64,000 nucleotides of DNA from Pecten maximus (taxonomy: Eukaryota). Of this stretch, positions 18,001-21,000 are shown piece after piece. The DNA lies in the NCBI RefSeq assembly GCF_902652985.1, contig NC_047020.1:7440001-7504000 (forward strand). Direction: 5' to 3'. Numbering within the stretch: the stretch's first letter is position 1; every line of letters begins with the position of its first letter. A program made the position numbers.

Positions 18001-21000
18001 AGCTCTCTCTCTCTCAAGTCACCTAGACTAAAGGCTCAGGTAAGCTTTCTCTCTAGTCACCTGGACTACAGGCTCAGGTAAGCTCCTCTCTATATAGTCA
18101 CCTAGACTACAGGCACAGGTAAGCTTTCTCTCTAGTCACCTAGACTACAGGCTCGGGTAAGCTCCTCTACCACTATTCACCTAGACTACAGGCTCAAGTA
18201 TGCTCATCTGCCCCCAGCTAGCTAGACTACATGTTAAAGTAAGCTTCTCTGTCTGCAGTCTCCTAAACTAAAGGCTCAGGTAAGCTTGTCTGCCATCAGT
18301 CACCTAGACTGCATACTCTGGTTATCTCAATCCTTCATTCCAGGTCACCTGCCCTCCAGTCAGTTGGAAAACATGTTGCATCATTAATCACGTCTTTATG
18401 ACGCCGTTCTTAAATAACATTTGTGATAATAGGACAAAAAGCAATATCAAACAAAACTGAAATCTTCTACAAAGTTCATTGTTCAACAGGTACTGTTAAA
18501 AAGCATGTGTATTGTTTGACAGGTAATGTTAAAAAGCATGTGTATTGTTTGACAGGTAATGTAAATAGCATGTGTATCGTTTGACAGGTAATGTTAAAAA
18601 GGATGTGTATCGTTTGACAGGTAATGTTAAAAGCATGTGTATTGTTTGACAGGTAATGTAACTAGCATGTGTATTGTTTGACAGGTAATGTTAAAAAGTA
18701 TGTGTATTGTTTGACAGGTAATGTTAAAAAGTATGTGTATTGTTTGACAGGTAATGTTAAATAGCATGTGTATTGTTTGACAGGTAATGTAAATAGCGTG
18801 TGTATTGTTTGACAGGTAATGTTAAAAAGTATGTGTATTGTTTGACAGGTAATGTTAAAAAGCATGTGTATTGTTTGACAGTTTATACACAACACACCAA
18901 AACAGTATGAAAGTCAAAAATTTATTGAATGGAACCAATAACTTGTTCAGGCTCATATTAAATATTACCTAAAGGTTTTGGCATTCTTAGGGGCTGCTCA
19001 TTCTTACAACTAAATAACATCAACTAACAATATTACATAATAAATTTTTACTCGCTACTAAAAAGATACACCTAAACAATTAAGATACTAATTATACTAT
19101 AGGGGCATGCAACCCCCAAGCTAGAGCGATCATAGCTTAGCTAGCTATGACTAATAGAAAGGAGAGAAACCTAGCTTGAGCGACCTCAAGCCACAGAGTA
19201 AGCAGTTGGTAGCTAAAAAGCAGGCAGTTCTGCTAAGACTGTTTCAGATGGGGCGACCCCCGAGCTTGGGTGATCCCAAGCATATCATCTACATAAGAAA
19301 TAAATACACAAAATATGATATAATGAATTGGGGGCAAGAAATTCCCCGAATTTAAAAGTGCTAATATCACGGCGTGATAAATTCATTACTGTGAGTGATA
19401 TCCTCTAACTATTCCGTACTAAGAAGAGCAGCCCAAAATAAAAATAAAAATGTGACAGCATGTAATAAAATAAAGCTTATAATTAACCAACACAGATGTA
19501 CAAAAAGGTGCTGCGAGCCGGCTGCCCCAACCTGAATCAGGGAGGTAGGTTTATCCAATGCTCAGACCAGCTTGCCAGGTGTTGTCTCACCATGAGGCCT
19601 TACTTACCCCTAAACAAATGAGCCCGAAACAAGTAAAAAAGACATGTAATAAATATAAATATTATAAGTAAACACATATAATAAAAACAACATATACACA
19701 TGAAAAGTACAGGCAATCAAAACAAAACAACAGTATATAAATATTAAAAGGTAATTATAATATAATATAAACAATTATACACAAACAACAGTAAAGAAAA
19801 CTGCAAATTATCAAAGGTGGAGGTGGGGCGGATGGTGGATGATGAATAAAACACTGCTGCTACAAATAATCACGCTGCTTGAAAATGAATGCAGGTGGCG
19901 CTATCCCCTGACGTATTTCCATTGGTCAAGAACATCACGTGATCAAAGGCGCGAGGTTAGAAATAGATATTTACTAACATGAAGACTGTGACGGGGTTTT
20001 TAAATGTTGTGTACAAACAACTATTTAGTAAACAAAATATCATGTAATGTTAAAAAGCATGTGTATTGTTTGACAGGTAATGTTAAGTATGTGTATTGTT
20101 TGACAGGTAATGTTAAAAACCATGTGTATTGTTTGACAGGTTATGTTAATAGCATGTGTATTGTTTGACAGGTAATGTAAATAGCATGTGTATTGTTTGA
20201 CAGGTAATATTAAAAAGTATGTGTATTGTTTGACTTCCATTACAGCTGGCATCTCCACCAATCCCTGGATGCACTTGGATACAGACACCTGTCCTCCTAC
20301 CATAGAAATTCCATACACATGAGCTTCGCCTCCCAGCTCGAGTCCCTTGGCCTCTGGGAGTGGGCGGTGTTCGCTGTACTTCACATTGAACAGCAAACAT
20401 AGTAAGTTATCACCCAGAATGATTTATAAGCCGAATCATGCTAGCTCCATGTGTTTAAGAACACAATTTAATCTGCGGAAAGGGAATTGGGCCTAATTGT
20501 CCAAAAATCAAATACAAAACTTTTTCTCTGTGTTCTCTGGTGAAATTATTTTAATGTCAGCTTTTGATCATTTGTTGATGTCAGACTAACAAGTCTAGTT
20601 TTTGTCATTTTAGTCGAGAGTCTGCTGTAAGGGAGCTGTTACTCAGACACGTCAGTCTCTCTAAAGACCATTTCTACCTGGAAAAGGAACAGTTCCTCAG
20701 AGAAAAACTTGATGTCCCAGCAGAGTGGATTCATTTTGCAAAGGTAAGGATGTTAAGTTGTTTATTGGATTGTAATTTTTAGTCCACCATCTTCAGATAG
20801 ACCAAATATAGACCATTCAATGGTGTGTGTTCAGATCCCTCTGGGATGTCTTGTTCATTGATGTTGGAAGATATTTCAGTACTTTTGTCACAGTTTGTCA
20901 GAGTTTTCTGGTCTTAGGAATTTGGCTAGGTACCGTTTCAGCTGCCTAATTCATCTATGTTTTCATTGGATAATGAAGTTAAGGAAACTTAATTTATCGT

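What the first reader, a model, noticed from the sequence alone, without database searches (positions are those of the whole stretch)
18882..20043. 'Solo A-B' relic: the solo-LTR equivalent of a split-direct-repeat retrotransposon
Seen: a 1162-bp ORF-less minus-strand insertion whose termini and collinear motifs mirror the A2-spacer-B2 block (32839-33848) of the full element, but with a much-diverged sequence. Inference: either A1 x A2 recombination deleted the coding region of a second Ngaro family, or this is a short non-autonomous derivative mobilised in trans. Two independent family insertions in one gene is notable.
Basis: partly seen in the sequence, partly recalled or inferred. Interest (0 to 1): 0.72.

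Follow-up and report, generated by a model that had tools for sequence, protein, structure and literature searches.

The report
Solo A-B remnant of scallop Ngaro
A 1.16-kb non-coding insertion in an intron of the king scallop nuclear-pore gene is the repeat-only remnant (one A and one B repeat) of a tyrosine-recombinase retrotransposon related to an intact copy 7 kb downstream; this kind of remnant has been described before in a protist, so it is a tidy but fairly ordinary find.

Summary
Window 18882-20043 (1162 bp) interrupts a 33-bp minisatellite exactly between two units, with no target-site duplication or loss, and has no ORF of 60 aa or more. Read on the minus strand, its two ends match the ends of the intact Ngaro-type element at 27466-33848 (10 of 11 and 12 of 13 bases). 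Its last 477 nt align to the 476-478-nt B repeat far above controls. Its first 202 nt align to the A repeat, and the 88 nt after that align to what follows A2, not A1. Two inverted-repeat pairs are kept in both elements with complementary base changes. Overall similarity is weak (nhmmer E 2.7-9), so this is a second, diverged family.

The host is Pecten maximus, not a fish. Both insertions lie in introns of the Nup98-Nup96 gene.

The most likely origin is A1 x A2 recombination that removed the coding part, as in a solo LTR. Insertion as a ready-made A-spacer-B unit cannot be excluded from a single copy. No eukaryotic DNA collection was available, so neither the copy census nor the search for a coding partner could be run.

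"Solo AB repeats" of Ngaro are already published for Cafeteria burkhardae. This is a new member of a known kind, of modest interest.

The parts
18882..20043 (-). Whole solo unit, 1162 bp, non-coding: A-like, spacer, B-like.
   Evidence: Interrupts the 33-bp array exactly. Longest ORF 59 aa. No coding remnant. No Rfam family or tRNA.
19842..20043 (-). A-like segment (element positions 1-202). Starts with the same 11-mer as A1/A2 apart from one base. Holds a CCAAT motif at 19919-19927.
   Evidence: Global alignment to A (367 nt) z 5.0, 0 of 100 shuffles reach it. 11-mer at 20033-20043. nhmmer reciprocal best hit 19928-19811 to 33108-33235, E 2.7-5.5. CCAAT read.
19359..19841 (-). Spacer, 483 nt against 165 nt in the full element. 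Only its first ~88 nt (19754-19841) resemble the A2-downstream spacer; the rest is AT-rich and unmatched.
   Evidence: Whole spacer z 1.1. First 88 nt vs first 100 nt after A2: score 40 vs 17.0 +/- 5.0, 0 of 300 shuffles reach it. Versus the first 100 nt after A1: score 4, 260 of 300 reach it.
18882..19358 (-). B-like segment, 477 nt (B of the full element is 476-478 nt). Has an AATAAA hexamer at 18921-18926, 39 nt from the end (37 nt in the full element).
   Evidence: Score 51 vs shuffles -43.9 +/- 15.6; 0 of 550 natural controls reach it. The B-start 21-mer matches with 3 mismatches at 19338-19358, chance expectation 0.03. Hexamers read.
18882..18894 (-). 3' terminal 13-mer, one arm of inverted pair IR1.
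   Evidence: 12 of 13 identical to the B1/B2 end.
20005..20017 (+). Inverted near-copy of the 3' terminal 13-mer, 26 nt inside the 5' end (second arm of IR1).
   Evidence: The equivalent arm in the full element is at 27500-27512 and 32873-32885, 34 nt inside A. The one base that differs between the families in the 3' arm is matched by the complementary change in this arm.
19426..19441 (-). Left arm of inverted pair IR2, upstream of the B-like segment.
   Evidence: Pairs with 18984-18999; 16 nt, 81% complementary, 426 nt between arms. Closes the domain in both the MFE and centroid folds, z -5.0, 0 of 100 shuffles.
18984..18999 (-). Right arm of IR2, near the 3' end of the B-like segment.
   Evidence: Counterparts in the full element are 32305-32322/32749-32766 (426 nt apart) and 33334-33346/33763-33775 (416 nt apart, 13 of 13 complementary).
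18478..18881 (.). 33-bp minisatellite, left part (target of the insertion).
   Evidence: TRF 12.4 copies, 92% matches.
20044..20234 (.). 33-bp minisatellite, right part. Resumes in phase with a complete unit.
   Evidence: TRF 5.9 copies; units printed.
17515..17787 (+). Nup98-Nup96 exon upstream of the host intron.
   Evidence: 100% identical to P0001 residues 1545-1635. Pfam Nup96 2.6e-18.
20229..20399 (+). Nup98-Nup96 exon downstream of the host intron. The solo is antisense to the gene.
   Evidence: tblastn P0001 residues 1631-1687. Pfam Nup96 7.2e-14. PDB Nup96 chains, E 1e-12.
27466..33848 (+). Full Ngaro-type element used as comparator, 6383 bp. A1 27466-27832; ORFs 28067-29593, 29551-31203 (RT) and 31212-32180 (tyrosine recombinase); B1 32361-32838; A2 32839-33205; spacer 33206-33370; B2 33371-33848. 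Lies sense in the last intron of the gene, 88 bp before the last exon (33937-34041).
   Evidence: A1=A2 367 of 367 and B1=B2 478 of 478. Three open ORFs. RVT_1 2.8e-12; Phage_integrase 7.4e-6 (26.3 bits, cut-off 27.1); no other domain at E up to 1 in ORF2. Exon map.

Best explanation
The insert is the non-coding A-spacer-B remnant of a full-length Ngaro-type retrotransposon from a second, diverged family.

Proposed history: that element was integrated by its tyrosine recombinase into the 33-bp minisatellite of a Nup98-Nup96 intron, without a target duplication. Homologous recombination between its two direct A repeats (A1 and A2) then looped out A-gag-RT-recombinase-B1. What remained was one A, the A2-downstream spacer and B2, in the same way that a solo LTR forms. 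The remnant has no genes and no internal B|A junction, so it is most likely inert today. At most it carries a promoter-like A part and a poly(A) signal, both antisense to the host gene.

Shown: the exact boundaries, the absence of a duplication, the homology of the ends, of A, of B and of the first part of the spacer, and the absence of coding sequence.
Inferred: that a full-length parent once sat here, and that recombination rather than insertion produced the unit.
For: - Exact in-phase interruption of the array with no duplication. The full element shows the same.
- Terminal 11-mer 10 of 11 and terminal 13-mer 12 of 13 at the independently defined ends.
- B vs B: score 51, with 0 of 100 shuffles and 0 of 550 natural controls reaching it; lengths 477 vs 476 nt. 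A vs A: z 5.0.
- The sequence after A is of the A2 type, not the A1 type. This fits an A1 x A2 product and argues against a simple internal deletion that kept the leader.
- There is no internal B-end 13-mer. Of the four hits of the degenerate 13-mer pattern that lie in neither element's terminal position, three are the inverted arms and the fourth, at 34501-34513, lies outside both elements.
- Two inverted pairs are kept with complementary changes and similar spacing. The B domain is still significantly structured (z -5.0). This means divergence happened under constraint in a live lineage, not by decay in place.
- P. maximus proteins include other RT lineages at 74, 65 and 61% identity to this RT (P0023, P0041, P0065), so diverged families exist in this genome.
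- Isolated AB repeats of Ngaro, read as recombination products, are published for Cafeteria (PMC8547959, passages).
- The internal junction region is required for DIRS-1 retrotransposition (PMC7192593, passages). By analogy, a unit without an internal B|A junction should not copy itself through RNA.
Against: - Sequence similarity is near the detection limit. nhmmer gives E 2.7-9. The whole-block score is 62 against 50 for the best natural T-rich control. Local alignment of the 3' 60 nt is reached by 62 of 500 shuffles.
- The A part is 202 vs 367 nt and the spacer 483 vs 165 nt. About 395 nt of the spacer match nothing.
- The segment windows for searches were chosen after I had seen the anchors.
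- No coding partner with these termini could be sought, so the 'second family' is inferred from one copy.
- Nothing in a single copy tells in-situ recombination from insertion of a ready-made A-spacer-B unit.
- The compensatory changes rest on two families only. The RNAalifold alignment misplaced the solo's left IR2 arm, so its count of 22 of 102 pairs is not a clean test.
Confidence: 0.55

Rival explanations
1. The unit was inserted as it stands. An extrachromosomal A-spacer-B DNA with one B|A junction was integrated by a Ngaro recombinase supplied in trans. Such a molecule could come from recombination between the two junctions of a circular intermediate, or from a short A2-to-B2 product. 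On this reading the unit is a non-autonomous mobile form and not a scar.
For: - The product would look identical: exact ends and no duplication.
- The junction region of the full element forms a strong hairpin with the crossover point at the foot of the 13-bp stem (-15.4 kcal/mol, z -6.9, 0 of 200 shuffles). The solo keeps both arms with a complementary change, so the presumed recognition features are intact.
- The B domain is still well folded.
- Both elements have the same four bases directly after the 3' end, which may hint at recombinase-chosen targets.
Against: - No second copy exists in the window.
- No relative of its 59-aa ORF was found among predicted proteins, though this is weak evidence.
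- No paper found reports mobile A-B units.
- A unit lacking the internal junction should not renew its ends through RNA (analogy with PMC7192593).
- The only published reading of solo AB repeats is recombination.
Confidence: 0.27
2. It is an internally deleted element (A1 ... B2) that lost its genes by an ordinary deletion, not by A1 x A2 exchange.
For: About 395 nt of the middle part match nothing in the full element. They could be remains of a family-specific leader or 3' region.
Against: - The first 88 nt after A resemble the A2-downstream spacer, not the A1-downstream leader.
- There is no protein-coding trace.
- No local similarity to the post-A1 or pre-B1 regions exceeds shuffles (159 of 200 and 101 of 200 shuffles reach the scores).
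Confidence: 0.08
3. It is an old, decayed solo of the same family as the full element at 27466-33848.
For: Same architecture and same end motifs.
Against: - The full element's own repeats are identical (367 of 367, 478 of 478), so that copy is recent.
- Neutral decay to this level of divergence should have eroded the 11-mer, the 13-mer, the inverted arms and the hairpins. Instead they are kept, partly by complementary double changes.
Confidence: 0.05
4. It is an unrelated repeat (SINE, MITE, Helitron or satellite-borne sequence) and the resemblance is chance.
For: Both sequences are T-rich on the compared strand, and composition alone lifts global scores. nhmmer E-values are not significant.
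Against: - The joint chance of the two end matches at fixed positions is about 4e-10.
- For the B alignment, 0 of 550 natural controls reach the score.
- There is no tRNA or Rfam family, no target duplication and no terminal inverted repeat at the very ends.
Confidence: 0.03

Closest known systems
Solo AB repeats of Ngaro retrotransposons in Cafeteria burkhardae (Hackl et al. 2021, eLife; PMC8547959, passages read)
   Same: Isolated A-B repeat units without the coding part, lying beside full A1-[ORFs]-B1A2B2 elements. The authors read them as recombination between 5' and 3' repeats and likened them to solo LTRs.
   Different: Here the host is a bivalve. The unit belongs to a family other than the neighbouring full copy. 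A and B are separated by a 483-nt spacer, whereas the Cafeteria formula shows A2 and B2 adjacent. Only one copy could be examined. That paper's supplementary tables were not seen.
Solo LTRs of LTR retrotransposons and endogenous retroviruses (established knowledge, recalled)
   Same: Loss of the internal coding region by recombination between two direct repeats of one element, leaving a repeat-only scar with intact outer ends.
   Different: A solo LTR is one repeat flanked by a target duplication. This scar is A plus spacer plus B, because the repeats are split, and it has no target duplication because integration is by a tyrosine recombinase.
Ngaro superfamily, DIRS order (Goodwin and Poulter 2004, recalled and not held; described in passages of PMC9210276, PMC4157794 and PMC3783388)
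   Same: The full element has the A1 ... B1A2 ... B2 split direct repeats, the order gag-like, RT, tyrosine recombinase, and no methyltransferase domain. The solo shares its ends, its A and its B.
   Different: The solo has none of the genes and only one A and one B, so it is a derivative and not a member in the full sense. No hydrolase ORF is present, unlike the amphibian Ngaro elements.
DIRS-1 internal complementary region (Malicki et al. 2020, NAR; PMC7192593, passages read)
   Same: An internal copy of the joined ends, thought to restore the termini and shown to be needed for DIRS-1 retrotransposition. B1|A2 is the split-repeat counterpart, and it is self-complementary here.
   Different: The role of B1|A2 in Ngaro has not been tested in anything I read. 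The solo lacks it altogether.

Membership tests
Ngaro-type retrotransposon (full element 27466-33848, the comparator) | Split direct repeats A1 ... B1A2 ... B2, placed downstream of the recombinase gene | tested here: met
   A1=A2 367 of 367 and B1=B2 478 of 478; B1 abuts A2 at 32838|32839.
Ngaro-type retrotransposon (full element 27466-33848, the comparator) | Reverse transcriptase and tyrosine recombinase ORFs, with no methyltransferase domain | tested here: met
   RVT_1 2.8e-12. Phage_integrase 7.4e-6 (26.3 bits, just under the 27.1 cut-off) plus a SAM-like N-terminal domain at 0.011. No further Pfam domain in ORF2 at E up to 1. PDB hits are retroviral-type RT fragments at E 5e-4 and Cre at E 0.1. 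RNase H was not detected by sequence.
Ngaro-type retrotransposon (full element 27466-33848, the comparator) | RT groups with reference Ngaro RTs in a tree | not tested
   No reference Ngaro protein could be fetched. The nearest named hits are 'uncharacterized protein' entries from scallops and mussels.
Solo A-B derivative of a Ngaro element | One A and one B in the order A-(spacer)-B, with the element's own outer ends | tested here: met
   Ends match 10 of 11 and 12 of 13. A z 5.0. For B, 0 of 550 natural controls reach the score.
Solo A-B derivative of a Ngaro element | No coding region and no internal B|A junction | tested here: met
   Longest ORF 59 aa. tblastn finds nothing below E 0.1. 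No internal B-end 13-mer. One internal one-mismatch copy of the 11-mer at 19804-19814 is not preceded by a B end and is not significant (40 and 45 of 500 shuffles reach the scores).
Solo A-B derivative of a Ngaro element | A is followed by the A2-type spacer, not the A1-type leader | tested here: met
   0 of 300 shuffles reach the score against the spacer; 260 of 300 reach it against the leader. The windows were chosen after the similarity was seen.
Solo A-B derivative of a Ngaro element | Integration without target-site duplication | tested here: met
   Complete 33-bp units on both sides, in phase.
Solo A-B derivative of a Ngaro element | A coding element of the same family (same A, B and ends) exists in the genome | not testable with these tools
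SINE / MITE / Helitron (considered and rejected) | tRNA- or other small-RNA-derived head, target duplication, terminal inverted repeats at the very ends, or Helitron-type ends | tested here: not met
   0 tRNA genes. No Rfam match inside the insert at E up to 1. No duplication. Inverted pairs are internal, not terminal. Helitron ends were judged by reading against recalled hallmarks.

The most novel reading that the evidence does not exclude
The A-spacer-B unit may be a self-contained recombination module that tyrosine recombinases of Ngaro elements can move as DNA, rather than a dead scar. It would consist of a junction hairpin with 13-bp arms, and a B domain of about 420 nt closed by a second conserved stem. 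Both features are kept between two otherwise barely alignable families through complementary base changes. 'Solo AB' units would then be a non-autonomous mobile class, and the shared four bases after the 3' end of both elements would reflect target choice.
Probability: 0.15. Interest if true: 0.6.

Novelty: new member of a known kind. Interest (0 to 1): 0.3.

Why it matters
The finding adds a clean animal example, with base-exact boundaries, to the one published report of solo AB repeats from a protist. It shows that split-repeat retrotransposons leave repeat-only scars in a bivalve genome too.

The more useful by-product is comparative. Two families that share almost no alignable sequence keep four things:
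- the same end motifs;
- a 13-bp inverted pair spanning the B|A junction;
- a second stem enclosing B at 416-426 nt spacing;
- the same B length.

These point to the parts of Ngaro non-coding DNA that are under selection, and they give concrete features to look for in other genomes. Annotators should note that such units are missed by protein-based transposon searches.

Tried and rejected
- **Third element.** A one-mismatch copy of the terminal 13-mer at 34501-34513 suggested a third element to its right. Global scores of 34501-35700 were 11 and 10, at background, so it was rejected.
- **Whole-block global alignment as main statistic.** It proved sensitive to T-rich composition: satellite at about 3200-5600 scores 50 and 58. 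I replaced it with end-anchored motifs and segment tests.
- **nhmmer in both directions.** It gave the right regions but non-significant E-values.
- **MAFFT of the two blocks.** It misaligned the 5' ends.
- **RNAalifold of the B domains.** It misaligned the solo's left stem arm, so its pair counts were not used.
- **Folding the whole solo as ssDNA.** The ends did not pair in the MFE structure.
- **Internal A-start-like motif at 19804-19814.** Not significant.
- **Protein search with the 59-aa ORF of the solo,** as a proxy for other copies. No candidate was found.
- **Target preference for minisatellites.** Rejected, because about 29% of the window is tandem repeat.
- **Goodwin and Poulter 2004.** Not held.
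- **The solo's would-be circle junction.** Not built or folded, because that would need its two ends joined. Only the natural B1|A2 junction was folded.
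Full report
**What is there**

Window 18882-20043 is a 1162-bp block that splits a 33-bp minisatellite. Tandem Repeats Finder reports the array at 18478-18881 and again at 20044-20234. The unit before the block and the unit after it are both complete, so the block was inserted with no duplication and no loss of target bases. Its longest ORF is 59 aa. It holds no tRNA gene and no Rfam family; the single sub-threshold hit lies in the neighbouring exon. tblastn with the three proteins of the nearby full element finds nothing below E 0.1.

**The comparator**

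On the plus strand, 27466-33848 is a 6383-bp element with three parts:
- A1 (27466-27832).
- Three open ORFs of 508, 550 and 322 aa.
- B1 (32361-32838), directly followed by A2 (32839-33205), a 165-nt spacer and B2 (33371-33848).

A1 and A2 are identical at 367 of 367 positions, and B1 and B2 at 478 of 478. ORF2 matches RVT_1 (2.8e-12). ORF3 matches Phage_integrase (7.4e-6, 26.3 bits against a cut-off of 27.1) and weakly the SAM-like N-terminal domain. No methyltransferase or other domain appears at E up to 1. PDB searches return retroviral-type RT fragments (E 5e-4) and Cre (E 0.1). This is the Ngaro architecture as described in passages of PMC9210276, PMC4157794 and PMC3783388. I did not place the RT in a tree with reference Ngaro proteins. 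No other piece of this element lies in the window.

**Is the resemblance real?**

Yes, but it is faint outside a few blocks.

The strongest evidence is positional. The insert's ends were fixed by the satellite. The full element's ends were fixed by its own repeats. In the minus orientation the two pairs of ends agree at 10 of 11 bases (5' end) and 12 of 13 bases (3' end). One-mismatch copies of these two words are expected 5.03 and 0.66 times in the 128,000 strand positions of the window. By my arithmetic that puts the joint chance of both matches at fixed places near 4e-10.

Segment by segment:

| Segment | Solo vs full (nt) | Result |
|---|---|---|
| B | 477 vs 476 | score 51; shuffles -43.9 +/- 15.6; 0 of 100 shuffles and 0 of 550 natural controls reach it (max 3) |
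| A | 202 vs 367 | z 5.0; 0 of 100 shuffles reach it |
| whole spacer | 483 vs 167 | z 1.1; not similar |

The start of B is also recognisable as a 21-mer with three mismatches (chance expectation 0.03).

Results that weaken the picture:
- The whole-block global score (62) is only modestly above the best of 266 natural controls (50, a T-rich satellite).
- nhmmer finds the right regions reciprocally, but at E 2.7-9.
- Local alignments of the 60-nt ends are reached by 5 of 500 and 62 of 500 shuffles.
- I chose the segment boundaries after seeing the anchors.

The plus orientation is at chance.

**A2-type or A1-type context**

In the full element A1 runs into the leader and A2 runs into the spacer. 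The 88 nt that follow the A-like part of the insert align to the first 100 nt after A2 (score 40 vs 17.0 +/- 5.0; 0 of 300 shuffles reach it). They do not align to the first 100 nt after A1 (score 4; 260 of 300 reach it). The remaining ~395 nt of the middle part match neither the spacer, the leader nor the region before B1 (101 to 159 of 200 shuffles reach those scores). The insert has no internal B end. An internal one-mismatch copy of the 5' 11-mer at 19804-19814 is not significant. The unit is therefore one A, an A2-type spacer and one B.

**Conserved structure**

Two inverted pairs are shared by the two elements.

- *IR1.* The 3' terminal 13-mer has an inverted near-copy 26 nt (solo) or 34 nt (full) inside the 5' end. 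The one position that differs between the two families in the 3' arm differs in the complementary way in the 5' arm. In the full element the natural B1|A2 junction (32816-32895) folds as single-stranded DNA into one long hairpin. The junction lies at the inner end of the 13-bp stem formed by the two arms (-15.4 kcal/mol, z -6.9, 0 of 200 shuffles).
- *IR2.* A stem joins a site upstream of B to a site near the end of B. In the solo the arms are 18984-18999 and 19426-19441, 426 nt apart. In the full element they are 426 nt apart (B1 context) and 416 nt apart (B2 context, 13 of 13 complementary). Again the arms differ between families by complementary changes.

Both B domains fold with this stem closing them in the MFE and centroid structures (z -5.0 and -4.0, 0 of 100 shuffles each).

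With only two families this is suggestive, not proof. The RNAalifold run misaligned one arm, and I do not use its counts. AATAAA hexamers lie 39 nt (solo) and 37 nt (full) from the 3' end. A CCAAT motif lies in the 3' part of A in both, read; the meaning of these motifs is recalled knowledge.

**Host and context**

The exon at 17515-17787 is 100% identical to the Nup98-Nup96-like protein of Pecten maximus (P0001). Its relatives in other scallops are 88-91% identical. The window is therefore king scallop. tblastn of P0001 maps exons on the plus strand from 239 to 34041 (Pfam Nup96 and PDB Nup96 support).

- The solo lies antisense in the intron between exons 17515-17787 and 20229-20399.
- The full element lies sense in the last intron (24291-33936), 88 bp before the last exon.

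Two insertions in one gene is thus confirmed. However, about 16.5 kb of the 56.5 kb outside the two elements is tandem repeat (my sum), so two hits in or at minisatellites has a chance of about 0.08.

**How it most likely arose**

I favour an A1 x A2 recombination scar of a full-length element of a second family (0.55).

For this reading:
- The A2-type context.
- The lack of any internal junction or coding trace.
- The exact element ends.
- The published reading of solo AB repeats in Cafeteria burkhardae as recombination products akin to solo LTRs (PMC8547959, passages).
- The requirement of the internal junction region for DIRS-1 retrotransposition (PMC7192593, passages). By analogy, a single-A, single-B unit is unlikely to copy itself through RNA.

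The divergence probably arose in a living lineage, not by decay in place. This follows from the kept end motifs, stems and hairpins, and from other RT lineages in P. maximus at 74, 65 and 61% identity.

The main rival (0.27) is insertion of a ready-made A-spacer-B DNA by a recombinase in trans. One copy cannot exclude it. Minor rivals are an ordinary internal deletion (0.08), an old copy of the same family (0.05) and chance or another class (0.03).

**What is known**

- The searches found the Cafeteria paper as the only text describing solo AB repeats.
- The passages I searched in the Xenopus, fungal, nematode, kinetoplastid and Ectocarpus papers hold no mention of 'solo' or, for Ectocarpus, nothing on solos among the Ngaro/DIRS passages.
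- A bivalve survey lists Ngaro only as low-copy (PMC10294476, one passage).
- Goodwin and Poulter 2004 is not held; what I say of it is recalled.
- Supplementary files were not seen and may hold copy tables that bear on this.

**Left open**

The genome-wide census and the search for a coding partner were not run.

**Verdict**

This is a new member of a known kind, interest 0.3.

Noticed in passing
window 27466-33848: The full Ngaro-type element looks very recent. Its A and B repeat pairs are identical (367 of 367, 478 of 478) and all three ORFs are open. It sits in sense orientation in the last intron of Nup98-Nup96, only 88 bp before the last exon (33937-34041), carrying AATAAA hexamers in B1 and B2. 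The annotated protein still includes that exon.
   Followed up: partly
window 18878-18881 and 33849-33852 (element-strand 3' flanks): Both elements are followed by the same four bases directly after their 3' end, and both lack a target duplication. The full element's target (the unit junction, seen intact at about 27275-27285) also resembles its own B|A junction at 8 of 11 positions by my reading. With two cases this is only a hint of target choice.
   Followed up: partly
window 27337-27465: A 129-bp stretch lies between the 50-bp satellite and A1. Its last 19 nt match the end of a satellite variant unit (94.7%) and its start resembles a unit start. It looks like an aberrant satellite unit rather than part of the element.
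   Followed up: partly
window 7664-7807 / 8519-8662 and 8129-8287 / 8988-9146: Two Nup98-Nup96 exons are present twice, about 855 bp apart. The annotated protein P0001 carries the matching repeated segments (residues 982-1080 and 1076-1169). This is a tandem duplication of an exon pair inside the gene.
   Followed up: no
window 51941-54329: A 44-bp tandem array of 54 copies gives long open frames in several phases (up to 887 aa, 51913-54576) with no Pfam match and a strong AT skew. The ORFs are an artefact of the repeat.
   Followed up: partly
whole window: There is an unusually high load of minisatellites: at least 19 arrays, about 29% of the sequence outside the two elements. Examples are 3528-5486 (43 bp x 46), 25784-27257 (50 bp x 29.5) and 37816-39193.
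   Followed up: no
window 32305-32322 and 33334-33346: The left arm of the stem that encloses B lies outside the perfect B repeat. It is nevertheless present, in diverged form, upstream of both B1 and B2. The functional B unit may therefore be longer than the identical repeat.
   Followed up: partly
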